A stretch of DNA of 56,446 bases from a virus. Its lineage: Duplodnaviria > Caudoviricetes. The first letter of the stretch is position 1. The number at the start of each line of letters is the position of its first letter. Of the stretch, positions 36,427 to 52,738 are shown piece by piece. Made by a program: the position numbers and the translations under genes. The stretch lies in the IMG/VR virus record IMGVR_UViG_3300023179_000130, positions 1 to 56,446 of that record; one strand, written 5' to 3'. The notes under the pieces are model-generated. The model was given only the letters and a program-made list of their open reading frames with translations, ran no database searches and was not told where the DNA came from.

Positions 36427-37593
36427 TCATCCGATACAAAACTTGTCACTAATTTGAGACGCAAGTTCTTTAGCAGCATTAGAAAGGAATCTGTTGTTAC
36501 TAAAATAAAGCGGAGTTGAGACTTGATTAAGAAACTCCACCACGGTTTTTAAAAGTTTAGTCTGCTGACCGTCTAGGTTTATATCCTCGTCAGGCAGGCT
36601 ATCCTGTGAGTTGCTAGGCCCATCCTCATCGTCAACAGGCAGCACAGGCATCGGATCACCGTAGGCTCGTCCAGATGTAGAACTTTCAACAGTGGTTGGA
36701 ATATTACTGCCATTAGTATATGTATATGTCCAATTAGTATTTTGGTTCCAGAACGCACCCTTATTAGGACAGCCATTTCGCAATTCATTTAGAATCTTTG
36801 CAGCAACATCTGTTGATACTGGAACGCCAGTTTCATCCGCTTCTTTATAAGCCTTGGCATATCCCTTATACCATTCATCACTACACTTATCTGGAATGAT
36901 CTGTAGTGTCGCTGGCTGACCAGTAAGGGCTGACTTAAGATCGGCCACATTAATTGGTTGACCAGTGCTGCCGGGAAGCAAACTCGTAAAATAAGGAGCC
37001 TTCTTCTCCCACTCCTTACGCCACCAAGTATAAGGAACACGATAAATCTGATTAGGCTTGATCGCTCTTGGATCACCACCGAAGTAGTTTACCAGCTTTT
37101 TCTGCAAGCCATTCCAGAAAGTTTTATTGGCCCCAACGATATTTCTTGAAGCATCATCAAAAATCCAGTAGCACTGATAACCATTACGAGTATCAACTAC
37201 CCAGCTAGGCTTAACAGGAAACTCATTAATTTTCTTTAGAAACTTTTTCTTGTGCTGCATAACAATGCTGGGCTTAAAATAAGTTCCATCATCATTTCTA
37301 CCAGCATCCATATCACAAAAACAGCAAGTAAATTGCTTAATAGCGTAAAGCTTGCGACCACCATTTACATAGAAGTAAGCATCGGAATGATTGTTGATAT
37401 TAGCATCAAGCGTCTCATTAAGATCGTTAGTATGATTCATACTACTAATCTTTTTACGAGGATTGCCATTATAGATAAAGATATGATTCTGGTTGAATGA
37501 ATTCAAAAATCTCTGCCTATTCTGAGCATAACCATTTGCATGAACATTATTATTCTTATCAAATGGATTAAAAGCCAAAGTATCACTAAACAT
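36427..37593 (-). CDS. RepB-type archaeo-eukaryotic primase (AEP superfamily)
   Basis: FCDMD (motif I), PSWVVDT.NGYQCYW (motif II), DP......IYRVP (motif III); AGGA RBS before ATG 37593. Confidence 0.78.
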   Translation of the reverse strand: MFSDTLAFNPFDKNNNVHANGYAQNRQRFLNSFNQNHIFIYNGNPRKKISSMNHTNDLNETLDANINNHSDAYFYVNGGRKLYAIKQFTCCFCDMDAGRNDDGTYFKPSIVMQHKKKFLKKINEFPVKPSWVVDTRNGYQCYWIFDDASRNIVGANKTFWNGLQKKLVNYFGGDPRAIKPNQIYRVPYTWWRKEWEKKAPYFTSLLPGSTGQPINVADLKSALTGQPATLQIIPDKCSDEWYKGYAKAYKEADETGVPVSTDVAAKILNELRNGCPNKGAFWNQNTNWTYTYTNGSNIPTTVESSTSGRAYGDPMPVLPVDDEDGPSNSQDSLPDEDINLDGQQTKLLKTVVEFLNQVSTPLYFSNNRFLSNAAKELASQISDKFCIG

Positions 37594-37636
37594 TTTAATT
37601 CCTTTTTGCAACTTACTACTTATTACTTACATTTTC

Positions 37637-37675: not shown

Positions 37676-37680
37676 TAAAA

Positions 37681-37769: not shown

Positions 37770-38630
37770 TCAGTTATAATATTCTTGATCTGGATCGTAA
37801 TCTTCATCTTCTATGGATTCTTCTTCATCATCTTCATTCCATGACCAATCATAATCTTCATCATAATCATCTTGATCATGGTAATCATCTTCATCAAAAT
37901 TACTCTTATAAAGAGGCTTCAGAAGTTCTCCTTGGTATTCACCAACTACTTCATAAAGACAAGTACGAAGTTTTTCACAATTACAATCAGTCGGAACACT
38001 TACTACATCTTTTGGATTAATCTTAACGATAACGATCTTGTCGCCAGCCTCAAGACTACCATAGCTAGCAACATAGTTAAGAGCGCCGGCATGAAGTCCA
38101 TTAGAACAACCACGACCACGATCATCGTCTACCTTAGATCGTGTCATTTGGCATATCTGACCGACCCTATTGTCGAAAACTCCACGATACTTATCCTTGT
38201 AGTCTGAGCGAACAGCCTTATAAGCCAGAAAGAAACCATCTTCAGTAATTGGCAAATGCTCATGCTCAAGAAAATCATACAGTTCCTTCTGACTCTGCAT
38301 ACTGGGATTTTCCATCAGATTATTCAGAAATTTAACAAGAGGCTCAAAAGGCAGACCCTTGCTCATAAACTCCAGAATACGTTTACTAATACTACCATGA
38401 ACTTCGTCACCCTCGTAAAGAACCTGTCCATTCTTGATCTCCACAAGACCATCGCTGAAAGACGCAACAGCCTTTTCAACGTCCACAACTTCCAGCAGTT
38501 CCTCTGCCGTAGCAGTAGGAAGCCTCTCCAGAATCAACTTATAGTTGATATGATCTGGCAACACCTGATAACTTTGATTATTCAATACCAGCGTCAAATT
38601 ACCATCAACGAACATAAACGGAACAGCCAT
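37770..38630 (-). CDS. rIIB: rIIB-like protein
   Basis: FL.NL.ENPS, ELYDFL, PITEDG.FLAYKAV, CS.GLH, VKINPKDVVSVP.D...KLRTC.YEV. Confidence 0.92.
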   Translation of the reverse strand: MAVPFMFVDGNLTLVLNNQSYQVLPDHINYKLILERLPTATAEELLEVVDVEKAVASFSDGLVEIKNGQVLYEGDEVHGSISKRILEFMSKGLPFEPLVKFLNNLMENPSMQSQKELYDFLEHEHLPITEDGFFLAYKAVRSDYKDKYRGVFDNRVGQICQMTRSKVDDDRGRGCSNGLHAGALNYVASYGSLEAGDKIVIVKINPKDVVSVPTDCNCEKLRTCLYEVVGEYQGELLKPLYKSNFDEDDYHDQDDYDEDYDWSWNEDDEEESIEDEDYDPDQEYYN

Positions 38631-38673
38631 AATCCAAACTCCTGTTTTTAGTTACGATACCTGTGATACTGTT

Positions 38674-38711
38674 ATTTTACACTAATCGGCAAGTTTGTCA
38701 AGGGGTCTTAA
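38674..38711 (-). promoter_or_regulatory. Interleaved sigma70 + sigma28-like promoter (rIIB)
   Basis: TTGACA-N16-TAAAAT with TTAAG-N16-GCCGAT. Confidence 0.7.
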
Positions 38712-38722
38712 GAAATTCCTGA

Positions 38723-41410
38723 CTACTTGATCAAACTACTCAACTGGATCTTAAATAGGTCAATACTCTCCTGACTCATTTGCTCAACCCAATCCTTACC
38801 TAGCTTTCCATAATAAGAATTACGATCTTCAAGAATAGGATTTTGGCTGGGCTTAAGGTCTGTTAGATTACCACTAACTTGATGAGTTCCCATAATATAC
38901 TTTAGCATAGGATTCTTATCTACTTCAGTCTTAATCTTTTCCCTAATCTCAGGGATCTTCCACTTCTTAAAATCTTCTGTAGAAGTTCCACGAATAATCT
39001 TCAAAAAACTCTCTGCTTTATCACTATTGATACCTGTATACAAACGATTAGTAATCATGTGAGTCAAGGTATTGTAAGCCAAATTAGCATTACGAATCTC
39101 CTTACCATCAATATTCTCAATCCCAACTTCTTTCATAAGCTTAGAAATATGAGATAGATACTCTGTTTGATTGAACTTGGTGATATTAAAAGTACTAATG
39201 TGAACAGTATTAGCAAAGAACTCTGTAAGCATTGTTTTATTCAAGCAATCAACAAGAGTCTTATTGCTAATAAACTTATCATAATCTAGACCAAAGATAT
39301 TCAGCATGTGGAACATAAACTGCTTATCAGTTGTTCCATAGTTGTAATATCTATAACCATTACGATTACTTGTTTCTTCTTTAGTAAAATCTATCTTACA
39401 ACTTTCAATGAGTTTATTAATGGAAGACAGATTCTTAAAGTGCTTGTTTGCAACAATCTTAAATTGACGCTTCAAGAAATCATTGAAGTTAATAAGATTG
39501 TACCCATCCTTCTCAAGCTTTTTAACGAAAGCTGTTTTGATAGCATAAATCTTACTATCTCCAACCAAGTCTTTGACTATGCTCTTGAGAGTTTCGTCTC
39601 TAAGAGTAATTGCAATGTCATTAATTTGAGGATAGCCAGATTCAGGCTCGGTCTTATAACGAAGCATAGGAACGTATACTATCTCATCTTGTTCCAGAAA
39701 ATCCTCTAGTTGTTCTTCTGAAAGGATTCTCAAGGAAGTAGCATCATTGTAAGGATTAGTAATCTGCTTGCTATCCTTATCATAACCGTGAATAAAGAAT
39801 ACATCTTGATCGCTGACACTACCATTAGAATTTCTAGTATAAGACTTTCTTGGGCCAGAACTTTGAGTAAGATGCTTATAATCTGAAACCTTGAGCAGAT
39901 TTTCAGGTCCAACATCTTCGATCAGTTGATCAAAACCTTCCTGACTCTTAGAGTAGTCCTTAGTGTCTAGGAGCATATAGGCAAAACAATCGTTTTGATT
40001 GCAATATTTTGTAACGATTTTTTTAGCCGTTTCTTCACCTTTAATGTCACAGACAAAGAAACTTATCTTACCTATCTTTTTAGAGTTATTCCAATAATAG
40101 GTTCCCTTTCCAGTAAGAGTATCATGGTGAATCTTATCTGTGAGTGCTACCAAACGACGAGAACGAAAACCAGCCGTCTTATAATTAAAAACGTACAGAC
40201 TTTTACCAGCAGGAATTTTATATTCCAAGTCATTCCCAGAGTTGATAGGATGATTTTTACCCTTGGAATCAGCCCAAGTAGCACCAACACCCCATCCTCC
40301 AGCCAATTCATTCATAGTATAATATGAAGTAATTGCCTCTACCTTAGTTTTAGCAGACTTAATCTTCTTCGAGAATTCTTCCTTCATCTCCATGTAAATT
40401 TCTTGAGTCTTTTTACGCAGGGTCTTGATTACATCTTTGGTATACTGAAGATTTTCTCGGCTTGCATCAATTTCCAATTCACCGATACCAAAGTCAAGTT
40501 CAAGATAAAGACCGGAATTGATTATTTCACTAACAAAACTTTTCCAAGAATCAATATCTGCTTTTTGAAAAGCTCTATTCCATTTTTGAATATGATCAGG
40601 CATTTCCTCCTTTTCCTGACCAACAATTTGTGCTGTTTCAGCCGGATATGCGATATTCCCCATGATAGCAATCACGCCACTATCAATCTTGTGGTAATTA
40701 TTTGGATAATAGCTATGGTCGCTGTTAACGCGACAAACTCTCCACCCATCACCGCTGATAATAATGTTGGTATTGCTGTACCTATGATCTTGAAGATTGG
40801 TTCCAATACCACCTTCAAGGATAGGTTTCATACGAAAATAATGGAAAATTCTCTTAGCTTTATCTGTAAACTCTTGAAAATCGTGTTGCTTAACTGCAAA
40901 CTGGATTTCAAGCCCATTAGGTTCAGAAGTGTCTGAAACACTGAACAGATTTAGAGAAGGAATACCATCAGCACCGATGGCAGCAACATAAGTATATTTT
41001 TTACCATTGAAATATGAAGATGTTGTGAAGCTCTTAGAATATGCGAATGGGCTTTTAGAACCCAAACCAAGACATCCCACAAAATCATTGCTGTTATTTT
41101 TGTTTGATGCACCATAGGTTGTGTACAGACTCTCCATGTCTGCTTTACTAAGACCAGTACCATAATCTCTCACCATAAAAATGGGATTAGCAGAGGTAGG
41201 TAGAGTTACCTTAAATGGATTCTTATTTCCTGCACTAATATGAGCATCCAAAGCGTTGGTGCTTAGTTCTCTAATAACTGCCATAACTTTATCTGAGTAC
41301 AAAGAATTACTCAAGATATGAAACATCTTTGATGATGTTTGAATAGAAAACTGACTAGTTGAAGCAATTCCCTTGTGATGCGTTTCAAAAGACTTATCCG
41401 CAAGAAGCAT
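38723..41410 (-). CDS. rIIA: rIIA-like protein (GHKL ATPase N-terminus)
   Basis: LYSDK..AVIREL..NA.DAH, VRDYGTGL, YG.S.K......G.LGLGSKSPF.Y, SRE.L.Y; adjacent to rIIB. Confidence 0.92.
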   Translation of the reverse strand: MLLADKSFETHHKGIASTSQFSIQTSSKMFHILSNSLYSDKVMAVIRELSTNALDAHISAGNKNPFKVTLPTSANPIFMVRDYGTGLSKADMESLYTTYGASNKNNSNDFVGCLGLGSKSPFAYSKSFTTSSYFNGKKYTYVAAIGADGIPSLNLFSVSDTSEPNGLEIQFAVKQHDFQEFTDKAKRIFHYFRMKPILEGGIGTNLQDHRYSNTNIIISGDGWRVCRVNSDHSYYPNNYHKIDSGVIAIMGNIAYPAETAQIVGQEKEEMPDHIQKWNRAFQKADIDSWKSFVSEIINSGLYLELDFGIGELEIDASRENLQYTKDVIKTLRKKTQEIYMEMKEEFSKKIKSAKTKVEAITSYYTMNELAGGWGVGATWADSKGKNHPINSGNDLEYKIPAGKSLYVFNYKTAGFRSRRLVALTDKIHHDTLTGKGTYYWNNSKKIGKISFFVCDIKGEETAKKIVTKYCNQNDCFAYMLLDTKDYSKSQEGFDQLIEDVGPENLLKVSDYKHLTQSSGPRKSYTRNSNGSVSDQDVFFIHGYDKDSKQITNPYNDATSLRILSEEQLEDFLEQDEIVYVPMLRYKTEPESGYPQINDIAITLRDETLKSIVKDLVGDSKIYAIKTAFVKKLEKDGYNLINFNDFLKRQFKIVANKHFKNLSSINKLIESCKIDFTKEETSNRNGYRYYNYGTTDKQFMFHMLNIFGLDYDKFISNKTLVDCLNKTMLTEFFANTVHISTFNITKFNQTEYLSHISKLMKEVGIENIDGKEIRNANLAYNTLTHMITNRLYTGINSDKAESFLKIIRGTSTEDFKKWKIPEIREKIKTEVDKNPMLKYIMGTHQVSGNLTDLKPSQNPILEDRNSYYGKLGKDWVEQMSQESIDLFKIQLSSLIK

Positions 41411-41455
41411 AAGTTATTCTCTCCAAATTTGTTTTTCTGTCTCTAAGATGTTCGT

Positions 41456-41491
41456 ATTCTACCATCGGCAGTGTCGCTTGTCAACCATTAG
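41456..41491 (-). promoter_or_regulatory. Interleaved sigma70 + sigma28-like promoter (rIIA)
   Basis: TTGACA-N17-TAGAAT with TAATG-N16-GCCGAT. Confidence 0.7.
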
Positions 41492-41582
41492 AAATGATTT
41501 TGTCTGCCTTGGCTAATTTTTTTTGCCCATAATGGTTAGCGATTTTAGTTGTCCCAAACTGTTTTAAAACCAATCGCTATAT

Positions 41583-41888
41583 CTAATAGTTTTCTTCATT
41601 TTCATTATTTTGATCATCAAATTCTTCAGCATCTTGGTCATCATAAGGACTCCATTCTGTATTATAGACATCTTCATTATCTTCCATTTGATCCTCTATT
41701 AATTCAGCGGCATCTATAATAACTTCTAATTCTTGAATTTTATTGAGTATCAAAGATATTTTTTGATCTAAAATTCTTATTGAGCGTTTAATCTCTTCAA
41801 TATTTTTTGTAGTTTTAGCATTTAGTGCTATATAATCTTTATGATTTTTTTGTATCTCTCTAAATATATCATTATATTCTTTTGACAT
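41583..41888 (-). CDS. Coiled-coil acidic hypothetical protein
   Basis: ORF track. Confidence 0.55.
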   Translation of the reverse strand: MSKEYNDIFREIQKNHKDYIALNAKTTKNIEEIKRSIRILDQKISLILNKIQELEVIIDAAELIEDQMEDNEDVYNTEWSPYDDQDAEEFDDQNNENEENY

Positions 41889-41894
41889 AATTGA

Positions 41895-42209
41895 TCACCA
41901 TTTTATATTTTTATAACCTTTTATATCCCCATTTTCTATGATCTTATTGTTTTCATAACTACTTGCAACCCTTCTATAAAATTCTTGCTTAATATTCTCT
42001 AATACACCAGTTATCATAGCAATTTTTTTATATGATGGTTCTTTCATTAAATTGCATATTATCTGAGAAAAAACATAATTAATACGGCCCAAATAAATAC
42101 TAAAATCATTAGGATCGTCTAAATGAGTCTTTATATCTTTAATACATTTGGTTATATTTTCTATAGCATCATATAACTGCTGTCTTTCATCCTCATTTAT
42201 ATATGGCAT
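41895..42209 (-). CDS. Hypothetical phage protein
   Basis: MPYI...G.INY...G.LE..KQEFYRR...YE..KI.ENGD pattern seen in many phages. Confidence 0.7.
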   Translation of the reverse strand: MPYINEDERQQLYDAIENITKCIKDIKTHLDDPNDFSIYLGRINYVFSQIICNLMKEPSYKKIAMITGVLENIKQEFYRRVASSYENNKIIENGDIKGYKNIKW

Positions 42210-42215
42210 AAATTA

Positions 42216-42740
42216 TTATTCCTCAATACATATACAATCATATTTAATACAATAGCAGCATAGTGGCCCAGGATTGTAATTTCCCCAAGCATTTGATGTG
42301 GAAATAAAACTTTCTTCACCAGTGTCTATACAAACTAATTTCTTAGTCTTTTGTCTATATACTAGACCAACATTATACCAATGGCAATCCCAAAAATTTA
42401 ATGTTGTTTTGTCATATATTTCTTCTACTAAAATTTGTATATTACGCACATTAGTTTTAGTATGATATACCGGCATAGCTTTTTCTGTTAAATATCCCCA
42501 ATTAGACTCACTATTATAGAGATAAGGATCTTTATGAGAAAAATTTAATTTGCAAATATCAGAAAAAATCTTAGGAGCAAGATTATATTTAGAAAGTTTG
42601 GTTTGATTTTTGTAAGATTCTATGGCTTTGGTTTTAGTATCAAATTCTTTAAATAATATACTGCTATTATTTTCAATAGAATATACTTGACAACTTCCTC
42701 CTTGGTCAAACCAATCAGTATTAATGAGGTACTTATTCAT
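42216..42740 (-). CDS. Minimal protein-kinase-like enzyme
   Basis: QGGSCQVY Gly loop, LFKEF Lys, DCHWYNVG catalytic loop, CIDTG. Confidence 0.65.
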   Translation of the reverse strand: MNKYLINTDWFDQGGSCQVYSIENNSSILFKEFDTKTKAIESYKNQTKLSKYNLAPKIFSDICKLNFSHKDPYLYNSESNWGYLTEKAMPVYHTKTNVRNIQILVEEIYDKTTLNFWDCHWYNVGLVYRQKTKKLVCIDTGEESFISTSNAWGNYNPGPLCCYCIKYDCICIEE

Positions 42741-42741
42741 T

Positions 42742-43059
42742 CTAATAAAATTGTATTTCTGGAATTTGTCCAGTAATATTATATATGAAATCTTTTACCT
42801 TATCTAAGGATTCAAAATTTCCTAAAAAAATAGTAGTACTTTGTTTATCATCTACATATCTTTTACCATATATTTGGTAAAATGGAATATCAAAAGCATT
42901 CCAATCATTAGATAAAAATTTTTCTATATCTTTAACCTGTTCTAAAATTATACCATTTTCATAATCATCATATTCTCTAACTGTAATAATTTCAAAAAAA
43001 TCAATGGGGGATTTAGGATGATTATTTTTAACCAATCCATTACAAATAATATTAGTCAT
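42742..43059 (-). CDS. Hypothetical protein
   Basis: ORF track. Confidence 0.55.
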   Translation of the reverse strand: MTNIICNGLVKNNHPKSPIDFFEIITVREYDDYENGIILEQVKDIEKFLSNDWNAFDIPFYQIYGKRYVDDKQSTTIFLGNFESLDKVKDFIYNITGQIPEIQFY

Positions 43060-43381
43060 TTTTTATACTATACAAACTGATAACCTTTTCTTGATTATCA
43101 TAAGGATTATTTTGCAGCCTAAGATCGTATAGTGATCCATCTTGTGTAATTTTGCCATATGCTACTGGCTCAGTATTCATAATACTATCTAATTTGGTTT
43201 TATTTTTACGCAATCTTTTAAGTTCATCTTTGGCATTATTTACCCAAAAACGATCTGCTCCAGAAGCCCAAGCAAAATCAATTATAGTATCTAGAGGATT
43301 TGCATTTTTATCCATATAATCTGCCAGTTCTATAAAAGTCCTTCGTATACTATCTTCCCAATTTTCATATTCTTCTATCAT
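43052..43381 (-). CDS. Hypothetical protein
   Basis: ORF track, overlapping operon arrangement. Confidence 0.55.
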   Translation of the reverse strand: MIEEYENWEDSIRRTFIELADYMDKNANPLDTIIDFAWASGADRFWVNNAKDELKRLRKNKTKLDSIMNTEPVAYGKITQDGSLYDLRLQNNPYDNQEKVISLYSIKND

Positions 43382-43604
43382 TCTCTATCTTTGCTACTTT
43401 TTCTTCTAAAATGCTCACTCTTTCATAAATATCACGATTAGCCAATGGATTCAAATCTTTTACTGGAGTTTTACCATCGCCAATCCTAGTATCCCATATT
43501 TGACATTCTGCATCTTTTTCATATAAGACAACTTCTCCAATCCTAGGAATATAAGATGAATTATTTCTAGCTTTTCCAATACCAAAATATGCATTCATAT
43601 TCAA
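43365..43604 (-). CDS. Hypothetical protein
   Basis: ORF track. Confidence 0.5.
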   Translation of the reverse strand: MNMNAYFGIGKARNNSSYIPRIGEVVLYEKDAECQIWDTRIGDGKTPVKDLNPLANRDIYERVSILEEKVAKIENDRRI

Positions 43605-43816
43605 ACAAATCCTATACGAGTTTTCTCACTAAGAGTAACTTCAATTTCATTTTCATGAAACCACTTGCTATCATGAGAGCGACCATTCCACCAGCTACAT
43701 TCGTAGGTTACATGATTATTACCGCGAATACACACAGCACTAATAATTCCAAATACATCATCCGCCAACTTAACTTTGCTACCAACCTTAAAAACTTCTA
43801 GAGAATTTTTAGTCAT
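43601..43816 (-). CDS. YodC/DUF2158-like small beta protein
   Basis: FKVGSKV.L...YEC.WW......F.E.E, C-terminal IGF. Confidence 0.55.
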   Translation of the reverse strand: MTKNSLEVFKVGSKVKLADDVFGIISAVCIRGNNHVTYECSWWNGRSHDSKWFHENEIEVTLSEKTRIGFV

Positions 43817-44030
43817 ATATTTCCTTTTTAGGTGTTAATTCAGCCTCTTCTGAGGCATCATAATATCCAGTATCATATCCTTGTTTATGACCCACAGTAT
43901 AAGCTGCCATCAACCATTTAATTATATCGTCTGTTCGTTCTTGTTCAACTGCAACTTTTACGTCATCCAACATTCGGTCTATTCTTGGGCCGAATCCTTC
44001 GTCTTGATTTATCCATTTGTCGAATGTCAT
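43809..44030 (-). CDS. Hypothetical protein
   Basis: AGGAG RBS and own sigma70 promoter. Confidence 0.6.
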   Translation of the reverse strand: MTFDKWINQDEGFGPRIDRMLDDVKVAVEQERTDDIIKWLMAAYTVGHKQGYDTGYYDASEEAELTPKKEIYD

Positions 44031-44056
44031 AAGATTTTATCTCCTGCAAACGCTTT

Positions 44057-44096
44057 GGTGTACTGCTATTATAGCCTCTACCTATTAAGGAGTCAA
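44057..44096. promoter_or_regulatory. Face-to-face promoters: minus-strand sigma70 and plus-strand GGTGTA motif
   Basis: Minus TTGACT(44091-96)-N17-TATAAT(44068-73); plus GGTGTA(44057-62)...ATAG, then AAGGAG RBS of the HNH gene. Confidence 0.6.
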
Positions 44097-44098
44097 CT

Positions 44099-44554
44099 AT
44101 GGAAAGACATAAATATTCAGTCGATGATTTAAAAAATGCTGTTAAAAATTCTCGTTCTATAGCTCAGGTTTTAGATAAGCTTGGTATTGTTCCAGCAGGA
44201 GGGAATTATCAAACGGTTAAAAGAAGAATAGCTAAATATAATATTGATACTTCTCACTTCGGAGGACAATCTTGGAATAAAGGACAAATTACTGGCCCTA
44301 AAAAACCTATTAACTTTTATCTCACTAAAAATTCTGTTGTTCAGAGTTTTAAACTCAAGAAACGATTGTTATCTGAGAATATTTTTCAGCATAAGTGTTG
44401 TGAGTGTCATAAAACTAAATGGCTAAATCATCCTATTCCTTTAGAATTGCACCATATTGATGGGGATCATTACAATAATGAACTATCAAATTTAACTTTA
44501 CTTTGTCCTAACTGTCATGCTTTAACTGATAATTATCGTGGGAAAAATAAGTAG
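44099..44554 (+). CDS. Free-standing HNH homing endonuclease
   Basis: HTH-like N-terminus, CCEC, LELHHIDGD..NN..SNL.LLCPNCHA.T; stop codon overlaps the tRNA 3' end. Confidence 0.9.
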   Translation: MERHKYSVDDLKNAVKNSRSIAQVLDKLGIVPAGGNYQTVKRRIAKYNIDTSHFGGQSWNKGQITGPKKPINFYLTKNSVVQSFKLKKRLLSENIFQHKCCECHKTKWLNHPIPLELHHIDGDHYNNELSNLTLLCPNCHALTDNYRGKNK

Positions 44555-44832
44555 GAGCAGAGGGGATCGAACCCTCACTGTATGGATTTTCGTACTACTA
44601 TAACTTTCGTTACCATTGCTGTTTGTAGTCTGGACTTTACCTTAACCATAGTTTTCACTTTAGGTTCCTGCCGTCAAGTCTCTACACCTTCATAATATTT
44701 CTATTAAGCTTGGCTCGGTATTAGCAGTTAAGCCTTCACCGACTTTGACAGGTTCTACATTAAAGATTTCTCCTTATGCACTCAATTTAACGAAAAAAGT
44801 CCACTGCCTCTGCCTAATTGGGCTATGCTCCC
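44552..44832 (-). tRNA. trnL: tRNA-Leu(UAA), intron-containing (exons 44832-44797 and 44590-44552)
   Basis: Spliced: GGGAGCATAGCCCAATTAGGCAGAGGCAGTGGACTT/AAAATCCATACAGTGAGGGTTCGATCCCCTCTGCTCCTA; 7-nt loop CTTAAAA, short variable loop, no encoded CCA. Confidence 0.92.
44591..44796 (-). mobile_element. Group I self-splicing intron (206 nt, no ORF) in the anticodon
   Basis: P1 ACTT/GAGT with U.G at the splice site, P3 CCTGTC/GGCAGG, P4 GTCGGTG/TACCGA, P7 GAGACT/AGTCC, GAAA tetraloops, terminal G; inserted after U34 as in cyanobacterial/plastid trnL(UAA) introns. Confidence 0.92.
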
Positions 44833-44837
44833 GTATA

Positions 44838-44920
44838 CTTCCGAACTACATATCATAACGATTGATTAGATGTTTGTCTATGTTGTCTCTATCAATATTT
44901 ATGAATAATGTAGTTGGAAG
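44838..44920 (-). other. Long imperfect hairpin in the tRNA leader
   Basis: CTTCC.AACTACA/TGTAGTT.GGAAG, TCATAA/TTATGA and ATTGAT/ATCAAT nested stems. Confidence 0.6.
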
Positions 44921-44935
44921 CATTTGGTTTTAAAA

Positions 44936-45220
44936 TCAATTGTTAGAATGAGCATTTTTAAGACGACGAACAATATCTGCCATAGCCTCAATATTGTCAA
45001 CAGTCTTAACTGGCTTTGCTCTTTCCATAGCGGGAAGTTCCTCACCCTTCTTAGCAAGGTCTGCCTTTACGCGAGCATATCGAGCCATCGTACTGGCAAT
45101 CTTCTGACCAGTTTTATTCGCAATCTCAGCATAAGTTTTGCTGCTAAAAACTGCCTCAAGAAACTTTTCATCACTGCAACGAACACGCTTCTGCTTTTCG
45201 CTAGTAGTAACTTCAGCCAT
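44936..45220 (-). CDS. Small basic HTH-like protein
   Basis: GGAGG RBS; TYAEIANKTG segment; all four Leu codons are CTT. Confidence 0.65.
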   Translation of the reverse strand: MAEVTTSEKQKRVRCSDEKFLEAVFSSKTYAEIANKTGQKIASTMARYARVKADLAKKGEELPAMERAKPVKTVDNIEAMADIVRRLKNAHSNN

Positions 45221-45301
45221 AATCAACCTCCAAATTCTTTGTCAAAATTGCAATCGTGAACTCAACCTAACTGATTGATCAGATCCACGATTCACTCTTT
45301 C

Positions 45302-45343
45302 ATTCTACAATACTGTATCGGCTCTGTCAATGGGTGTTCTTGA
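45302..45343 (-). promoter_or_regulatory. Interleaved sigma70 + sigma28-like promoter (HTH gene / tRNA-Leu unit)
   Basis: TTGACA-N17-TAGAAT with TCAAG-N16-GCCGATA. Confidence 0.72.
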
Positions 45344-45380
45344 AAATTTCTAGATTTCAAGAATTATTATTGTCTAAATT

Positions 45381-45572
45381 TTACTTAGTGTCTTTATTTG
45401 GTAACACTATAGCTAATAATAGATAAATCCAAAAAAGTAAAGTTCCACTAAATAAAGTTCCTATTATAAATAGTATTCTTAGTAAAGAAACATCTATAGA
45501 AGTATAATCAGATAATCCTGAACAAACACCAAATAAAACCCTATTATATTGATCTTTATATAAGTTTTTCAT
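45381..45572 (-). CDS. pspC: PspC-domain membrane protein
   Basis: LYK....RVLFGVCSGL.DY..ID..LLRI...YLLLAIVLP. Confidence 0.88.
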   Translation of the reverse strand: MKNLYKDQYNRVLFGVCSGLSDYTSIDVSLLRILFIIGTLFSGTLLFWIYLLLAIVLPNKDTK

Positions 45573-45653
45573 ATGTTGAATTTTCTATTAAAGAATTAAT
45601 ATTAGATATTGGATATCCTAAAATTAGATATACATAGTATGTATTGTTTTTTA

Positions 45654-45938
45654 TCATATAAGATTAATTTTGAGTATAAAATATCCTTCTTCTTCTGTTT
45701 CTATGATTTGAATCATAGATATTTTACCTTTACCTAAAAAAGAATCTCCTACCATCAAATGAACACCACCATCTAAATGAGCAGATGTAATGTATGATGT
45801 GTCAAATTGACAACCAAATTTAGCCCAATTTGTATATCCTTCAAGTAAATATTCTTTTTCACCAATTTGAGTAATAATTCTAGTATTTAGATTATTTTTA
45901 AGCTGTGCATATCGAACCATTAACTGACTCACTAACAA
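45654..45938 (-). CDS. Hypothetical protein
   Basis: ORF track; start uncertain. Confidence 0.5.
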   Translation of the reverse strand: MLVSQLMVRYAQLKNNLNTRIITQIGEKEYLLEGYTNWAKFGCQFDTSYITSAHLDGGVHLMVGDSFLGKGKISMIQIIETEEEGYFILKINLI

Positions 45939-46143
45939 AATGATAGCCTTCTTTATTTAGAGACGTTAAACTATTAAGAACGTCTTTTAGTTTTTCGTTT
46001 TCTATTTCTAATTTTAGAATAATATCTTCAGCTTGATTTAGTGCTTTATATAGTTGCTTAACCTTAAAAGCTAATTCATCAGCGATAAATTCGTTAGGAG
46101 TTTTTTTAACCATAAAAACCCTTTCTATATAAAATATAATCAA
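45898..46143 (-). CDS. Coiled-coil hypothetical protein
   Basis: ORF track (probable start MVKK near 46113); GGTGTA motif at 46160-46165. Confidence 0.5.
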   Translation of the reverse strand: MIIFYIERVFMVKKTPNEFIADELAFKVKQLYKALNQAEDIILKLEIENEKLKDVLNSLTSLNKEGYHFVSESVNGSICTA

Positions 46144-46165
46144 GACTAATACTATATATTACACC

Positions 46166-46447
46166 CTAATCTAGTTCTAAACTTGATAAAAATTTTTTTA
46201 GATCTTTTAATTGATTGTTATTCAATACTATTTGATCATTATAGGGTTTTTTATGAAAAATAATTTGATAACAATACCTTAATCTCTGCCATAATGACAT
46301 TTTATTACTATAATTTGTATAATTTTCAAATATCGCTAAATCCGCAATATTAATTGTATGATCATATTCAATAACTAAAATTTCACTTCTACAATCACAA
46401 GGAATGAATAATGTCTTATTTTCTTTTAGATTTGTTATGCTTCCCAC
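46166..46447 (-). CDS. Hypothetical protein
   Basis: C.C..E...W.RL pattern; GTG start. Confidence 0.55.
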   Translation of the reverse strand: MGSITNLKENKTLFIPCDCRSEILVIEYDHTINIADLAIFENYTNYSNKMSLWQRLRYCYQIIFHKKPYNDQIVLNNNQLKDLKKFLSSLELD

Positions 46448-46535
46448 GTTTAAAAATCCTATCGTAATTTTTAGCCCATGTTTGCTGATCTACAGTTTTG
46501 GGCCTGGGTTTAGAACCTTTGCCATTTTGACTCAT
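46416..46535 (-). CDS. Small basic phage peptide (39 aa)
   Basis: MSQNGKGSKPRP...WAKNYDRIF; GAGGA RBS; below ORF-track cutoff. Confidence 0.55.
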   Translation of the reverse strand: MSQNGKGSKPRPKTVDQQTWAKNYDRIFKRGKHNKSKRK

Positions 46536-46538
46536 TAT

Positions 46539-47237
46539 TTAATCCTCAAGCACAAATGACCAGTATCGACTATCTTCTTTCTTTTGAAGATCATCCCAAT
46601 AAATCGAGCGGGCGATATAAGATGGAACCTTGAGTTTGCCACAATTAATCATCCAATGACGCTCCATCTTCTTATAAATGGATGATCCCAACTTACTTTT
46701 ATTATACTTTAGAGACTCAACATCGTAAAGCCGAAGTTGATGTATATCTCCACACAATACTCTAGCCTCATTAGGATGAATCATCTCCAGAGCAAAACTA
46801 ATCTTTGCCAAACCAATACCACTAATTTTATTCAAGATACTATCTCGTTTCTTGACATGGTACTTTTTAGTGGTAAAATAAAAGTCTTTAGGATTAGCCC
46901 AAAACTTGGTGCTAAAATCCCAAATATAATTCGTACGATTATTGTGTAGTCCTACGCCGCTCTTGTGGAGTTTTGTCAAAAGAATTTCTTTGCTATCCAC
47001 CCACTCACTAAAATTCTTGATAGCATTATATCCCTTGACATTGCCCTGCCAAGTGGTATGGACGCTGCAAAAAGCAAAGAGATAACGACGAAAAATATCT
47101 TCATCAGTCTTGGGACTAACACTCTCCCAATAGTCTTTATAGGCAACTACCTTATCCTTGGGAAAATTCTTAAAAAACTCGTCAGCCTTACTTGTATTCA
47201 TAACAATAGGTTTTTTCTCAACAACTGCTTCAGTCAT
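46539..47237 (-). CDS. HhH DNA glycosylase (Ogg-like)
   Basis: ISGIGLAKISFAL HhH and LCGDIHQLR catalytic Asp region; GGAG RBS before ATG 47237. Confidence 0.75.
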   Translation of the reverse strand: MTEAVVEKKPIVMNTSKADEFFKNFPKDKVVAYKDYWESVSPKTDEDIFRRYLFAFCSVHTTWQGNVKGYNAIKNFSEWVDSKEILLTKLHKSGVGLHNNRTNYIWDFSTKFWANPKDFYFTTKKYHVKKRDSILNKISGIGLAKISFALEMIHPNEARVLCGDIHQLRLYDVESLKYNKSKLGSSIYKKMERHWMINCGKLKVPSYIARSIYWDDLQKKEDSRYWSFVLED

Positions 47238-47274
47238 ATCTTCTCCAAAATTTGTTTCCAATGGTTATGCTAAC

Positions 47275-47317
47275 ATTCTATACTACTGGTATCGGTTTGT
47301 CAAGTGTCGTTTCTTTA
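47275..47317 (-). promoter_or_regulatory. Interleaved sigma70 + sigma28-like promoter (glycosylase)
   Basis: TTGACA-N17-TAGAAT with TAAAG-N16-ACCGATA. Confidence 0.72.
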
Positions 47318-48628
47318 AACCGTTCTAGCAGACCCGTGCAAAACCTTAAAAATCGGAAAACGCAAACTAATCCCGCCATCTTGGTTTTCGCTCTCAGAGA
47401 AATACTGCACAGTTATTATCTTTCCAAGTATCTTTTTAGGATGCTTATGAAAATCCTGACGTTGTTCAATACTAAAACCAGAGCCAACTCGCACAGTATA
47501 CCCCTTATGCTGAATCATAACACAACTCAACATAGTTTCCTCACACTCTGCACCATCTTTAACATAACGAAATGGCCCCATTTCAACGTCCACAACCTCA
47601 TATTCATCATCAAAGAACGCTTTATACTTCAATAGGTCTTTGGATCGCTTGCCTTTATATGGAACGTCAGACCGAAGCATAAGCCCCTCATACCCATTCT
47701 GATTGGATTCAGTCACGAATTCTTGAAAGTGATTTTCATCTTTAACCAAAGACTGTTCCAGAAGTGTCAAACAAGCACACTCATTCTTCTTCATCACTTC
47801 TGTAAGATTCTTTAGTCTAATACTAAATGGTCGATTCTTTTCTCCTTTCTGACTATAAAACTCATCATGAGAGATCATATCAAAAATTTTATATGAGGGA
47901 TTGGGGATAGTATGATCTTTCTTACGAAGTTCCTTCATTACACCTTGAAAATCCTCATTACCATCTTCATCCACAAGACAAAGCTCTCCATCAAGAACTA
48001 CATTAGTAAGTCCCAAAGCTTTAATGCCACCGCTAACAACATCAAGAGTATCAAAGATTTTTCCCGTGCGGGAATAAAAGGTAGAATTACCATTACTATC
48101 AACAATAGCAATACATCTAGCTCCGTCGATCTTCCTGCTAACATACCATCCATCCTTCCAATCTACAATATTAGGATCATATTTATCTGCCAATGCAACG
48201 CTAAATTCTGGAATATGATCTGGAATAGCCTTGTTGATAATCTTGTCCCCTGCTCTTGTTTTTAGGTCTTTATCAATTATGCAGTAAATAAGTTCCTCAT
48301 AGTCTGAGTGATGCTCAATAAAACTATTTACAGCAGCAATAGCGTCATGCCCAGTAATTTTACGACCCTTTAGAGCATCAAGCAAATCAAAAAAATTCTT
48401 GTATTCGTTCTTTCTCGATACAAGATAATTCTTCTTTTTGAGATTATCGCTTGTTACATTATATTGCCAAAGAGGATGATAAGTATAAAGAAGAATTTTC
48501 TTAGTAAAGTTTGCAGCCTCAGAATTATGGTTGCAATAATCCTCAATAATACCTTGCTTATCTATAGTGCTACTGGTAGCCCTAAGATCACGAACCATCC
48601 CCCAAACATAATTAAAATCGTGAGTCAT
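47315..48628 (-). CDS. lig: ATP-dependent DNA ligase
   Basis: SRKIDGAR (KxDG), SRTGK, LDGEL, YKIFD, EGLMLR, LLKYK, VGSGFS, SLRFP; AGGAG RBS before ATG 48628. Confidence 0.95.
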   Translation of the reverse strand: MTHDFNYVWGMVRDLRATSSTIDKQGIIEDYCNHNSEAANFTKKILLYTYHPLWQYNVTSDNLKKKNYLVSRKNEYKNFFDLLDALKGRKITGHDAIAAVNSFIEHHSDYEELIYCIIDKDLKTRAGDKIINKAIPDHIPEFSVALADKYDPNIVDWKDGWYVSRKIDGARCIAIVDSNGNSTFYSRTGKIFDTLDVVSGGIKALGLTNVVLDGELCLVDEDGNEDFQGVMKELRKKDHTIPNPSYKIFDMISHDEFYSQKGEKNRPFSIRLKNLTEVMKKNECACLTLLEQSLVKDENHFQEFVTESNQNGYEGLMLRSDVPYKGKRSKDLLKYKAFFDDEYEVVDVEMGPFRYVKDGAECEETMLSCVMIQHKGYTVRVGSGFSIEQRQDFHKHPKKILGKIITVQYFSESENQDGGISLRFPIFKVLHGSARTV

Positions 48629-48653
48629 TCCAAATTTCTCCTGTGTTCCGATC

Positions 48654-48710
48654 AGTATATCATACGATATGCCACTTGTCAAGTATCGACTATTTACGAT
48701 TTGGTCTTGA
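48654..48710 (-). promoter_or_regulatory. Tandem sigma28-like + sigma70 promoter (ligase)
   Basis: TCAAG-N15-GTCGATA directly followed by TTGACA-N17-TATACT. Confidence 0.68.
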
Positions 48711-49031
48711 AAGAAAATAATTCATAGCGTTAGTGATACCTCTTATATTATCACCCAACTTACCTATACCAGTATTACAAGGTTCACACAAAAATCCTCT
48801 AAAACTATTATCACTATGATCATGATCCAAACACCATTTATATGGTATTTTCCCGCAACATTCACAAACTTCTGGCTTAGGAGGAGCTTCTTTATGAAGT
48901 TTATTTCTTATTTTAGATTGTTTCTTAACACATTTTCTACATCTACTATCCAGATTATCTTTGTACATACTATGCTTGGGAAAACTTGCTTTGTTCTTCC
49001 TTTTCCCACAATATTTACAAATTTTTCTCAT
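48690..49031 (-). CDS. Endonuclease VII-family nuclease
   Basis: CECCG, LDHDH...RGFLCEPCNTGIG.L.DN. Confidence 0.88.
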   Translation of the reverse strand: MRKICKYCGKRKNKASFPKHSMYKDNLDSRCRKCVKKQSKIRNKLHKEAPPKPEVCECCGKIPYKWCLDHDHSDNSFRGFLCEPCNTGIGKLGDNIRGITNAMNYFLSRPNRK

Positions 49032-49040
49032 AATATTAAG

Positions 49041-52686: not shown

Positions 52687-52702
52687 AATAGTGTATTATA
52701 TC

Positions 52703-52731: not shown

Positions 52732-52738
52732 GGATACC

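What the first reader, a model, noticed from the sequence alone, without database searches (positions are those of the whole stretch)
37770..48628. Candidate TTA-codon timing gate: promoter-linked genes avoid TTA, and the tRNA that reads TTA must first be spliced
Seen (manual reading): rIIB has 28 Leu codons and none is TTA; 44936-45220 uses CTT for all 4 Leu; I found no TTA in the ligase, the HhH glycosylase or the first ~170 codons of rIIA, and only one in the AEP primase. Elsewhere (dnaB, nrdA, recA, 30764-31708, the HNH genes) TTA is common. The TTA-free genes are those behind the dual sigma70/sigma28-like promoters, and tRNA-Leu(UAA) lies downstream of one such promoter (45302-45343) and carries a group I intron in its anticodon. 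Known: Streptomyces bldA (tRNA-Leu UAA) gates TTA-containing genes, and T4 supplies its own tRNA-Leu(UAA). Inference: first-wave genes are translatable by a host poor in UUA decoding, and the bulk of the genome is unlocked only after the phage tRNA is transcribed and spliced. Partial exceptions: the small genes at 50835 and 53325 have one or two TTA.
Basis: partly seen in the sequence, partly recalled or inferred. Interest (0 to 1): 0.85.

Follow-up and report, generated by a model that had tools for sequence, protein, structure and literature searches.

The report
Early phage genes that avoid TTA
A handful of probable early genes in this large uncultured phage almost never use the leucine codon TTA, which the rest of the genome uses constantly, and the phage carries its own tRNA for that codon; this is a sharp example of a pattern already described for phage T4, and the intron in the tRNA looks incidental.

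Summary
In rIIA, rIIB, the DNA ligase, the HhH glycosylase, the 96-aa gene at 44936-45226, endonuclease VII and gene 36427-37611, TTA makes up 1 of 178 Leu codons. In the other genes it is 612 of 1242. Fits on GC3 or A3 predict 59-62 TTA codons. Only in-frame TTA is missing (O/E 0.04; off-frame 1.02), so the effect is on decoding.

The avoidance is conserved in up to 78 related viral contigs despite heavy synonymous turnover. The split tRNA at 44551-44832(-) is real. Its anticodon is UAA and its insert is a group I intron.

The "must be spliced" gate is not supported. 27 of 50 related loci have an intronless tRNA and avoid TTA equally.

TTA is the extreme of a wider avoidance of A-ending codons. 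A complete 238-kb relative carries 12 tRNAs, eight of which read A-ending codons.

Best reading: T4-like two-dialect codon usage. The first-expressed genes fit the host tRNA pool; the rest lean on phage tRNAs.

Host, timing and expression are untested. The verdict is a new variant of a known kind, of moderate interest.

The parts
38723..41410 (-). rIIA; TTA 0 of 66 Leu codons
   Evidence: phrog_612 at 2e-113. Codon counts. Orthologs have TTA 92/4990.
37770..38630 (-). rIIB; TTA 0 of 28
   Evidence: phrog_609 at 2e-71. Orthologs have 32/2067.
36427..37611 (-). 394-aa gene of unknown family; TTA 1 of 24, at codon 354
   Evidence: Counts. No family found. Orthologs have 127/994, a weaker avoidance.
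41456..41484 (-). Promoter-like site upstream of rIIA: TTGACA-N17-TAGAAT with GCCGAT in the spacer
38674..38701 (-). Promoter-like site upstream of rIIB: TTGACA-N16-TAAAAT with GCCGAT in the spacer
45302..45330 (-). Promoter-like site upstream of the 96-aa gene and the tRNA: TTGACA-N17-TAGAAT with GCCGATA in the spacer
   Evidence: An equivalent site is present in 45 of 49 related loci.
44936..45226 (-). Conserved 96-aa basic protein, helical and possibly helix-turn-helix; 4 Leu codons, all CTT
   Evidence: AlphaFold model with pLDDT 77. No significant fold match; the best E is 0.22, to HTH domains. Orthologs have TTA 10/265.
44797..44832 (-). tRNA(UAA) 5' exon, 36 nt, ending ...ACUU
   Evidence: aragorn -i. 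Sequence read. Intronless homologs show the loop CUUAAAA.
44591..44796 (-). Group I intron, 206 nt, inserted between U34 and A35 of the anticodon
   Evidence: RF00028 at 52.6 bits, E 1.1e-12. 26 of the 63 pairs predicted for the whole tRNA-plus-intron alignment of 13 homologs keep pairing through double changes, several of them in intron helices. The U.G pair at the 5' splice site and the terminal G were read by eye.
44551..44590 (-). tRNA(UAA) 3' exon, 40 nt as ARAGORN reports it; the variable region is only 5 nt and the discriminator is A
44099..44554 (+). HNH endonuclease gene abutting the tRNA 3' end; TTA 7 of 15
   Evidence: phrog_10822 at 1.2e-46. Homologs of 87-89% identity lie beside intron-containing tRNAs in L018, L055 and L032.
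47275..47303 (-). Promoter-like site upstream of the glycosylase: TTGACA-N17-TAGAAT with CCGATA in the spacer
46539..47261 (-). HhH (Ogg-like) DNA glycosylase; TTA 0 of 16
   Evidence: PF22175 at 3e-07. Orthologs have 17/657.
47315..48682 (-). ATP-dependent DNA ligase; TTA 0 of 34. The start is uncertain, because the listed TTG start lies inside a promoter-like TTGACA.
   Evidence: PF01068 at 1e-19 and phrog_114 at 2.4e-85. Promoter overlap. Orthologs have 31/1104.
48690..49031 (-). Endonuclease VII; TTA 0 of 6 here, but not avoided in relatives
   Evidence: PF02945 at 2e-10. Orthologs have 43/124.
49038..49390 (-). Phage tmRNA just upstream of the endoVII-ligase-glycosylase run; tag GETQLALAA, whose first Leu is a TTA codon
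   Evidence: RF00023 at 82 bits. Tag read.

Best explanation
This phage belongs to a large clade of uncultured AT-rich phages and writes its genes in two codon dialects.

A small conserved set avoids A-ending codons and excludes TTA almost completely. The set is rIIA, rIIB, the DNA ligase, the HhH glycosylase and the 96-aa gene; relatives add a few more. Most of these genes sit directly behind consensus sigma70-type promoters. All other genes, including replication and virion genes, use TTA as the main Leu codon.

The phage encodes its own tRNA(UAA). It lies about 100 nt downstream of the 96-aa gene in a promoter-driven unit. Complete relatives carry about a dozen tRNAs, mostly for A-ending codons.

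Most likely mechanism. The first-expressed genes must be translated by the host's tRNA pool alone, and UUA is the codon that pool serves worst. Selection therefore purges TTA from those genes. The bulk of the genome follows AT mutation pressure and relies on phage-supplied tRNAs once they accumulate.

What is shown: the codon pattern, its frame specificity, its conservation, the tRNA, the intron and the operon layout.

What is inferred: that the TTA-free genes are the earliest, that the host is poor at UUA, and that the phage tRNA is charged with Leu.

The group I intron is a mobile passenger in some alleles and is not part of the mechanism.
For: 1. TTA is 1/178 in the set against 612/1242 elsewhere, with log2 odds ratio -6.8. 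The next most depleted codon is AAA at -3.3.

2. The expected count is 59-62 given GC3 or A3. RecA, at GC3 0.30, still has 11/28.

3. Only in-frame TTA is depleted: O/E 0.04 against 1.02 and 0.69 off-frame. Selection therefore acts on decoding, not on the DNA or RNA word.

4. The pattern is conserved. Orthologs in related viral contigs show 92/4990 for rIIA, 32/2067 for rIIB, 31/1104 for the ligase, 17/657 for the glycosylase and 10/265 for the 96-aa gene. Flanking genes show 10-57%.

5. At 44 conserved Leu columns of 63 distinct rIIA sequences there are 4.3 different Leu codons per column. TTA is 41 of 2655 there, against 603 TTG and 330 CTA, its one-step neighbours. The clamp loader control has 217 TTA of 841.

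6. tRNA(UAA) is present in 50 of 80 loci, and in 49 of 49 loci that hold the 96-aa gene. It always lies downstream of that gene, and a promoter match precedes the gene in 45 of 49.

7. The complete relative G001 (237,915 bp) has 12 tRNAs. They include Leu UAA, Ile UAU, Arg UCU, Lys UUU, Gln UUG, Glu UUC, Thr UGU and Gly UCC. In that genome the four most depleted codons in the TTA-free class are TTA, ATA, AGA and AAA, all read by phage tRNAs.

8. In G001, 24 of 32 consensus promoter matches lie at 133-192 kb, where the TTA-poor genes cluster. Promoter-proximal genes have TTA 9/124 against 1877/5707 elsewhere. At gene level the Mann-Whitney p is 0.003.

9. Virion and replication genes of G001 use TTA at 33-48%. 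The portal has 25/74 and DnaB 14/42.

10. Literature. Early and late phage genes often differ in codon usage (PMC5683454, abstract). One view is that early mRNAs rely on host tRNAs and late ones on phage tRNAs (PMC11025619, passages citing Yang et al. 2021).
Against: The host is unknown, so host scarcity of tRNA-Leu(UAA) is untested. A phage of 30-37% GC often has an AT-rich host, in which TTA would be common.

There are no expression data. No RNA run was listed. 'Early' rests on promoter matches and on analogy with T4 rII and ligase.

A-ending codons read by phage tRNAs are not significantly more depleted than A-ending codons without a phage tRNA (Mann-Whitney p = 0.18).

TTA-rich small ORFs lie in the same promoter-driven stretches as the TTA-free genes (45381-46447 and 41583-44030).

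Some promoter-proximal genes carry TTA: 2/5 and 3/10 in the window, and 3/5, 2/9 and 2/9 in G001. Within the early region of G001 the promoter association is weak (p = 0.04, n = 10 against 86).

Replication genes that should be needed fairly early are TTA-rich.

The window's tRNA lacks the long variable arm that defines bacterial tRNA-Leu, so its charging with Leu is an inference.

The gene set was chosen post hoc and the ORF calls are crude. One search counts near-identical loci more than once. Searches removed duplicates.
Confidence: 0.55

Rival explanations
1. UUA decoding is essentially absent until the phage tRNA is transcribed and its intron removed, so splicing sets the delay that separates first-wave from later genes.
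For: In the window the tRNA does carry a group I intron in the anticodon. It lies downstream of an early-looking promoter. The intron is under structural selection.
Against: 27 of 50 related loci have the same tRNA without an intron. TTA avoidance is the same in both groups: 46/2639 with an intron and 73/2954 without. Group I introns in tRNA genes are common mobile passengers. Here an HNH endonuclease gene abuts the intron-containing allele.
Confidence: 0.07
2. A bldA-like licensing gate without the intron. The host cannot usefully decode UUA, and accumulation of the phage tRNA-Leu(UAA) is itself the timer that unlocks more than 90% of phage genes. This would be a regulatory device rather than simple supply.
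For: The exclusion is near absolute: 1/178 here and 1-3% in relatives. That is far beyond the partial avoidance of other rare-type codons, such as ATA at 13% and AGA at 32%. The tRNA is universally retained in an early operon. The distribution of TTA fractions in G001 is bimodal: 13 of 153 genes lie below 3% and the main mode is 25-45%.
Against: Sequence alone cannot tell this apart from passive supply. TTA-rich ORFs share transcription units with TTA-free genes. Eleven other phage tRNAs in the relative point to general supplementation. The host is unknown.
Confidence: 0.2
3. Counter-defence. On infection the host tRNA-Leu(UAA) is cleaved or depleted, either by a host anticodon or variable-loop nuclease or by the phage itself. 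Anti-abortive-infection genes such as rIIA/rIIB must be translated regardless, so they lack TTA. The phage then supplies a replacement tRNA, in many alleles one without the long variable arm.
For: rIIA/rIIB head the TTA-free set. The tRNA occurs in an unusual short-variable-arm form at the same locus as normal class II forms. The literature describes phage tRNAs that escape tRNA-targeting defences (PMC11025619, passages and reference list). It also describes a defence that cleaves the variable loop of a class II tRNA (PMC13096335, abstract in the search listing).
Against: No nuclease, repair ligase or kinase pair was identified near the locus. Class II alleles are also common (13 of 44 de-duplicated loci). 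The avoidance extends, more weakly, to all A-ending codons.
Confidence: 0.1
4. Plain expression-level codon bias or foreign origin. The TTA-free genes are either the most highly expressed genes regardless of time, or recent imports with another composition.
For: These genes have higher GC3 (0.32-0.36 against about 0.09-0.25). Their dialect looks like classic optimal codons: CGT, CTT, AAG, ATC, TTC. They are the best conserved proteins in the region, at 81-87% against 37-71%.
Against: Foreign origin is contradicted by conservation of the pattern down to 56% rIIA identity with high synonymous turnover. It is also contradicted by normal off-frame TTA. Time-independent expression bias is contradicted by virion genes at bulk TTA levels in G001: portal 25/74 and a virion structural protein 14/33. 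The major capsid gene was not identified.
Confidence: 0.1

Closest known systems
Phage T4: eight phage tRNAs and codon usage that differs with time of expression (Cowe & Sharp 1991; Kunisawa 1992). I saw only their titles, in the reference list of PMC3152331. Their content and the T4 tRNA list are recalled.
   Same: An AT-rich phage with rIIA/rIIB and its own tRNAs, mostly for A-ending codons and including Leu(UAA) and Ile(AUA-reading). Gene classes use different dialects.
   Different: Here one codon is excluded almost absolutely from a small conserved gene set. The tRNA for it sits in its own early operon beside rII, away from the main tRNA cluster. The replisome is not T4-like: it has DnaB and a DnaE-type polymerase.
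Streptomyces bldA, where tRNA-Leu(UAA) gates rare TTA-containing genes (PMC2000904, abstract in the search listing).
   Same: A single tRNA(UAA) on which the translation of a defined class of genes depends. TTA is present or absent by gene class.
   Different: The polarity is reversed. Here TTA is the majority Leu codon, and the TTA-free genes are the small special class. The tRNA is viral. The rarity of UUA decoding in the host is not shown.
Supply of tRNAs by lytic phages for late genes as host tRNAs decline (Yang et al. 2021, as described in passages of PMC11025619; Sf14 analysis PMC12482277, passages).
   Same: Early genes fit the host pool. Later genes fit the phage tRNAs.
   Different: Those studies report graded shifts in adaptation indices. 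Here the contrast at one codon is about 50-fold and is conserved across a clade.
The cyanobacterial and plastid trnL(UAA) group I intron (PMC4476775, abstract in the search listing). The U34/A35 insertion position in those genes is recalled.
   Same: A group I intron interrupts the anticodon of a tRNA(UAA). The 5' exon ends in CUU and the 3' exon starts with AAAA.
   Different: It lies in a phage genome and is present in only 23 of 50 related loci. It occurs in both long-arm and short-arm tRNA bodies and has an adjacent HNH gene. I made no sequence comparison with cellular trnL introns.

Membership tests
Group I intron | Match to the curated covariance model at or above the gathering score | tested here: met
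   RF00028 scores 52.6 bits against a gathering score of 50, with E 1.1e-12, over model positions 1-253. It was found only when the search was limited to 401 bases. It was missed.
Group I intron | Conserved core helices kept by compensatory changes | tested here: met
   In 13 homologs, 26 of 63 predicted pairs show double changes that keep the pair. One stem shows UA/CG at 8:5; another hairpin shows AU/GC at 7:6 and CG/UA at 7:6. The helix names are my own reading.
Group I intron | U.G pair at the 5' splice site in P1, and a terminal G before the 3' exon | tested here: met
   By eye, the exon end ACUU can pair with GAGU about 15 nt into the intron, and the intron ends in G before AAAA. Intronless homologs read CUUAAAA across the junction.
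Group I intron | Self-splicing activity | not testable with these tools
   No RNA run was listed.
Bacterial tRNA-Leu (class II) | Anticodon for a Leu codon | tested here: met
   UAA in all 27 intronless loci, and in all intron-containing ones once the junction is set by the intronless homologs. ARAGORN's own junction gives GAA for the window and six loci.
Bacterial tRNA-Leu (class II) | Long variable arm | tested here: not met
   The mature window tRNA is 76 nt with a 5-nt variable region. In relatives, 31 of 44 de-duplicated loci have the short form and 13 have an 83-87-nt long-arm form.
Bacterial tRNA-Leu (class II) | Discriminator A73, an identity element for LeuRS (recalled) | tested here: met
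   A follows the acceptor stem in the window tRNA and in the listed homologs, as read by eye.
Bacterial tRNA-Leu (class II) | Charged with leucine | not testable with these tools
   Indirect only. In TTA-rich genes, TTA alternates with the five other Leu codons at conserved Leu columns, so UUA must still mean Leu.
bldA-type TTA gate | The cell has no other efficient decoder of UUA | not testable with these tools
   The host is unknown.
bldA-type TTA gate | TTA is confined to a small regulated gene class | tested here: not met
   The reverse holds. TTA is 49% of Leu codons in most genes, and only a small class lacks it.
bldA-type TTA gate | Delayed accumulation of the mature tRNA | not testable with these tools
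   No expression data. The intron cannot be the conserved delay.
T4-type phage tRNA / two-dialect codon usage | Phage tRNAs read codons frequent in the phage bulk genes | tested here: met
   In G001, 8 of 12 tRNAs read A-ending codons that are 37-77% of their families in bulk genes.
T4-type phage tRNA / two-dialect codon usage | A gene class defined by time of expression uses those codons less | tested here: inconclusive
   A class with consensus promoters uses them less. Its time of expression is inferred, not measured. Depletion is not specific to tRNA-cognate codons among A-ending codons (p = 0.18).

The most novel reading that the evidence does not exclude
A virus-encoded counterpart of bldA. 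In this clade the phage's own tRNA-Leu(UAA) is made from an immediate-early operon together with a conserved small DNA-binding-like protein. It would be the licence for translating nearly the whole genome. A dozen or so TTA-free genes (rIIA, rIIB, ligase, glycosylase and a few others) would form a pre-licence programme that runs on the host's tRNAs alone. The repeated loss of the long variable arm from this tRNA-Leu would then be an adaptation of the licensing tRNA, for example escape from a nuclease that recognises class II tRNAs.
Probability: 0.2. Interest if true: 0.75.

Novelty: new variant of a known kind. Interest (0 to 1): 0.5.

Why it matters
What phage tRNAs are for is still debated. 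The candidates are codon supply, late-infection replacement and counter-defence.

This clade offers an unusually clean natural contrast. One codon runs at 30-50% in most genes and at about 0-3% in a conserved handful. The matching tRNA sits in a conserved early operon. Natural variants exist with and without an intron, and with and without the long variable arm.

If a host is found, simple experiments could separate supply from gating. These include deleting the tRNA, recoding rII with TTA, and supplying the tRNA in advance.

The short-arm tRNA(UAA) also bears on how bacterial LeuRS recognises its tRNA.

Tried and rejected
DNA similarity to isolated phages. There was no megablast match for 37770-48628. 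rIIA gave only matches of at most 37% identity. The portal of G001 gave no match. The polymerase gave matches of at most 33%. No isolate or host could be named.

Host inference. The GC3-rich DUF932 gene of G001 found one 3.7-kb contig of a Bacteroidetes MAG at 74%. That is too little to name a host, and the promoters are not of the Bacteroidetes type (my recollection). Photo_RC (PF00124) was absent from three complete relatives, which gives no support for a cyanophage.

RNA evidence. No RNA holder was listed.

The 96-aa gene. There was no Pfam or NCBIfam hit. The best PDB profile match had E 0.3. No fold match reached E <= 0.001.

Circular genome. I first thought a UvdE gene wrapped the window ends. 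One search shows the left-end ORF is a dNMP kinase, so the idea was rejected.

Word-level avoidance of TTA, such as a nuclease site. This was rejected because of the off-frame counts.

Reassignment of UUA by the odd tRNA. This was rejected because TTA alternates with other Leu codons at conserved Leu columns.

Fold of the pre-tRNA alone. Its energy was not distinguishable from shuffles (z = -0.92).

Promoter-like sites overall were no more frequent than in shuffles (78 against 69.1). Only the 11-of-12 matches in intergenic positions are used.

Supplementary files were not consulted. The gene lists of PMC12482277 and PMC5683454 may hold comparable per-codon data.

Full report
WHAT THE WINDOW IS

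The window is the whole of a 56,446-base virus record with GC 30.5%. Nearly all genes are on the minus strand. Both ends cut genes: a dNMP kinase ORF at 3-545 and a UvdE-like ORF at 56046-56444. The two do not join, so the record is a linear fragment.

It encodes the following:
- primase, DnaB and a UvsX/RecA-like recombinase;
- PhoH, NrdA and NrdB;
- a head maturation protease, a sigma factor and a clamp loader;
- rIIA, rIIB, an ATP-dependent DNA ligase, an HhH glycosylase and endonuclease VII;
- a tmRNA at 49038-49390(-).

No isolated phage is close. IMG/VR holds many relatives. A scan with rIIA found 174 relatives, of which the best 80 were kept (L001-L080), at 56-90% amino-acid identity. 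Some lie on contigs of 186-238 kb. Three of those records are rated complete and have terminal repeats.

THE OBSERVATION

With greedy longest-ORF gene calls, TTA is 612 of 1242 Leu codons (49%) in the bulk of the genes. In seven genes it is 1 of 178:
- rIIA, 0/66;
- rIIB, 0/28;
- ligase, 0/34;
- glycosylase, 0/16;
- the 96-aa gene 44936-45226, 0/4, all CTT;
- endonuclease VII, 0/6;
- gene 36427-37611, 1/24.

The label 'AEP primase' for 36427-37611 found no support.

IS IT MORE THAN COMPOSITION?

The seven genes have higher GC3 (0.32-0.36). More exactly, they have half the A at third positions (19% against 39%) with unchanged T.

They use a different dialect throughout. TTA, AAA, ATA, CAA, AGA and GAA are down. 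AAG, CTG, CGT, CAG, CTT, GAG and ATC are up.

TTA is still an outlier. Its log2 odds ratio is -6.8, against -3.3 for the next codon. A logistic fit of TTA fraction on GC3 or A3 of the other genes predicts 59-62 TTA codons; 1 is seen. RecA, at the same GC3 as the ligase, has 11/28.

From position-specific base frequencies, in-frame TTA has O/E 0.04. The same trinucleotide in the other two phases has O/E 1.02 and 0.69. Other A-ending codons sit near or above 1, except ATA at 0.46 and GTA at 0.70.

So the first 'would refute' criterion of the finding is not met: the depletion is stronger than for other AT-ending codons. The frame specificity places the cause at decoding.

IS IT SELECTED?

Orthologs in the related loci were taken as the best blastp hit per locus with at least 60% coverage. 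Near-identical loci were not removed in this count. They show the same pattern:
- rIIA, 92/4990;
- rIIB, 32/2067;
- ligase, 31/1104;
- glycosylase, 17/657;
- the 96-aa gene, 10/265;
- gene 36427, 127/994, a weaker avoidance;
- endonuclease VII, 43/124, no avoidance;
- flanking genes, 10-57%.

Per locus, the five core genes have 0-8 TTA in about 60-160 Leu codons. This holds down to 56% rIIA identity, while the rest of each locus has 24-54%.

In 63 distinct rIIA sequences, 44 columns are at least 90% Leu. Each column holds on average 4.3 different Leu codons. TTA is 41 of 2655 there, beside 603 TTG and 330 CTA, which are one transition away. In the clamp loader, TTA is 217 of 841 at such columns.

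Frequent synonymous change that almost never lands on TTA means purifying selection against TTA in these genes. It rules out a recent import with foreign composition.

THE tRNA AND ITS INTRON

Plain ARAGORN and whole-window Rfam scans missed the tRNA and the intron. With introns allowed, aragorn reports a 76-nt tRNA with a 206-nt insert at c[44551,44832]. Rfam's group I intron model scores 52.6 bits (gathering 50) when only 44500-44900 is searched.

ARAGORN's arbitrary junction yields anticodon GAA. The intronless homologs in 27 related loci read CUUAAAA across the site, which fixes the anticodon as UAA and the insertion between U34 and A35. The exon end ACUU can pair with GAGU in the intron, and the intron ends in G (by eye).

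Thirteen homologous pre-tRNAs align well. 26 of 63 predicted pairs are kept through double changes. The intron therefore looks like a working ribozyme.

It is sporadic, however: 23 related loci have it and 27 do not. After dropping loci with identical core genes, TTA in the core genes is as follows:
- intron, short-arm tRNA: 36/1879;
- intron, long-arm tRNA: 10/760;
- no intron, short-arm tRNA: 44/2071;
- no intron, long-arm tRNA: 29/883.

The avoidance does not depend on the intron.

An HNH endonuclease gene (44099-44554, +) abuts the tRNA. Homologs of 87-89% identity lie beside intron-containing alleles in three loci. This fits a mobile intron.

THE tRNA'S CONTEXT

In all 49 loci that hold a homolog of the 96-aa gene, the tRNA lies downstream of it. 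The gap is 80-110 nt in 47 loci and about 530 nt in 2. In 45 of the 49 a TTGACA-N16-18-TAnAwT match precedes the gene. The window has the same layout, with the promoter at 45330-45302.

The 96-aa protein is basic, helical and highly conserved (mean column identity 79%). Its model has pLDDT 77. The best fold matches are HTH DNA-binding domains, but none is significant.

PROMOTERS

In the window, six minus-strand matches have TTGACA, a 16-17 nt spacer containing CCGAT, and a -10 hexamer. Four precede rIIA, rIIB, the 96-aa gene and the glycosylase. The other two precede small genes with TTA 2/5 and 3/10.

In the complete relative G001, 24 of 32 consensus matches lie at 133-192 kb. Twelve of the 32 carry CGATA in the spacer, against a background chance of about 1% per spacer. 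Genes starting within 150 nt downstream have TTA 9/124, against 1877/5707 elsewhere.

At gene level the medians are 0.03 (n = 10) and 0.30 (n = 275), with p = 0.003. Against other + strand ORFs of the same region the comparison is with 0.22 (n = 86), p = 0.04. The association is real but loose.

THE WIDER PICTURE FROM A COMPLETE RELATIVE

G001 is 237,915 bp with GC 36.8% (fetched). It has 12 tRNAs by ARAGORN and 13 Rfam matches:
- Arg UCU, Thr UGU, Gln UUG, Glu UUC, Lys UUU, Gly UCC, Asp, Asn, Ser and Tyr in a cluster at 145-155 kb;
- Ile UAU at 176 kb, close to where related loci carry a tmRNA;
- Leu UAA at 185.5 kb, beside rII.

Of 153 ORFs with at least 12 Leu codons, 13 have under 3% TTA. 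The main mode is 25-45%. The TTA-poor + strand genes cluster at 139-151 kb and 173-192 kb. Besides the window's set they include a calcineurin-like phosphoesterase, a GP88-like protein and a DUF932 protein.

In ten such genes against 130 long ORFs, the most depleted codons are TTA (-6.5), ATA (-2.9), AGA (-2.8), AAA (-2.5), CTA (-2.2) and CCA (-2.1). Among A-ending codons, those with a phage tRNA are not significantly more depleted than those without (p = 0.18).

Portal, virion, polymerase and DnaB genes use TTA at 33-48%.

INTERPRETATION

The data fit the picture long proposed for T4 and restated for other lytic phages. AT-rich phages carry tRNAs for the A-ending codons they favour, and gene classes expressed at different times use different dialects.

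My sources are as follows:
- titles of Cowe & Sharp 1991 and Kunisawa 1992, seen in the reference list of PMC3152331; their content is recalled;
- PMC5683454, abstract;
- PMC11025619, passages;
- PMC12482277, passages.

The special feature here is that one codon is excluded almost completely from a conserved handful of genes, and its tRNA is kept in an early-looking operon. I take the most likely cause to be that UUA is the codon the host serves worst. Genes that must be translated before phage tRNAs accumulate cannot afford it.

That the host is poor in UUA decoding, that the TTA-free genes are the first expressed, and that the tRNA accepts leucine are all inferences. A true regulatory gate (bldA-like) and a counter-defence role remain open. 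The splicing gate does not.

VERDICT

This is a new variant of a known kind, with interest of about 0.5.

Noticed in passing
window 44551-44832(-); L002-L080 tRNA loci: The tRNA(UAA) has only a 5-nt variable region, although bacterial tRNA-Leu is class II. At the same syntenic site, relatives carry either this 73-76-nt short-arm form or an 83-87-nt long-arm form, each with or without the intron. The short form keeps a 3-bp D stem and A73, which suggests descent from a class II tRNA-Leu by loss of the arm.
   Followed up: partly
window 49038-49390(-): This is a phage-encoded tmRNA (82 bits) that plain ARAGORN missed. Its tag is GETQLALAA. Relatives have the tags GVNQLALAA, GTTQLALAA, GTNQLALAA, GNTQLALAA and GKTSLALAA. 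The first Leu of the tag is a TTA codon in the window and in 7 of 8 related tmRNAs, so tagging itself needs UUA decoding.
   Followed up: partly
L042, L047, L052-L054, L057, L065, L067; G001 176138-176210: Eight related loci and G001 carry a tRNA-Ile(UAU), which reads ATA. In the loci it lies a few hundred bases upstream of the tmRNA. The window has none there. ATA is the second codon depleted beyond composition in the TTA-free genes.
   Followed up: no
window 37680-37764(-): A tRNA-like cloverleaf lies between rIIB and gene 36427. RF00005 scores 23.8 bits, below the cut-off of 29. It has a 19-nt hairpin inserted in the anticodon loop, a perfect T arm and a following T run. It could be a decayed tRNA gene, a processing signal or a terminator.
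   Followed up: partly
window 49598-50134(-): A SpoU-family RNA 2'-O-methyltransferase gene lies next to the tmRNA. It gives weak matches to RlmB, TrmH (Gm18) and TrmL (wobble 2'-O-methylation of tRNA-Leu). Its substrate cannot be assigned.
   Followed up: partly
window 38674-38701, 41456-41484, 45302-45330, 47275-47303, 53580-53608, 51295-51322; G001 136-186 kb: Early-type promoters carry (G/C)CGATA or CCGAT inside the spacer at variable offsets. In G001 this holds for 12 of 32 sites, against about a 1% chance per spacer. It may be a regulator site.
   Followed up: partly
window 30764-31708, 44099-44554, 51351-52238, 52664-53332, 55553-56104 (all +): The few + strand genes are very AT-rich (GC3 0.09-0.24) and TTA-rich. 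Four of the five match HNH or endonuclease VII-like families, so they are likely free-standing homing endonucleases. Gene 30764-31708 matched no family.
   Followed up: partly
G001 (L083-L085) 54824-62599, 62605-69303, 72848-78349, 81201-100883 (-): The complete relative has giant ORFs of 2591, 2232, 1833 and 6560 codons in a row on one strand. I did not annotate them.
   Followed up: no
G001 41507-43372 and 44294-45913 (L083): The DnaE-type DNA polymerase is split into two ORFs about 900 bases apart, matching the N and C parts of phrog_405. Something is inserted between them, perhaps an intron, an intein remnant or an endonuclease gene.
   Followed up: no
G001 150641-151618 (L088:10641-11618): A DUF932 gene with GC3 0.67 sits in a 37% GC genome, behind a consensus promoter, with TTA 0/25. 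It looks like a recent import. Its only hit in the genome collection is 74% identity on a 3.7-kb contig of a Bacteroidetes MAG.
   Followed up: partly
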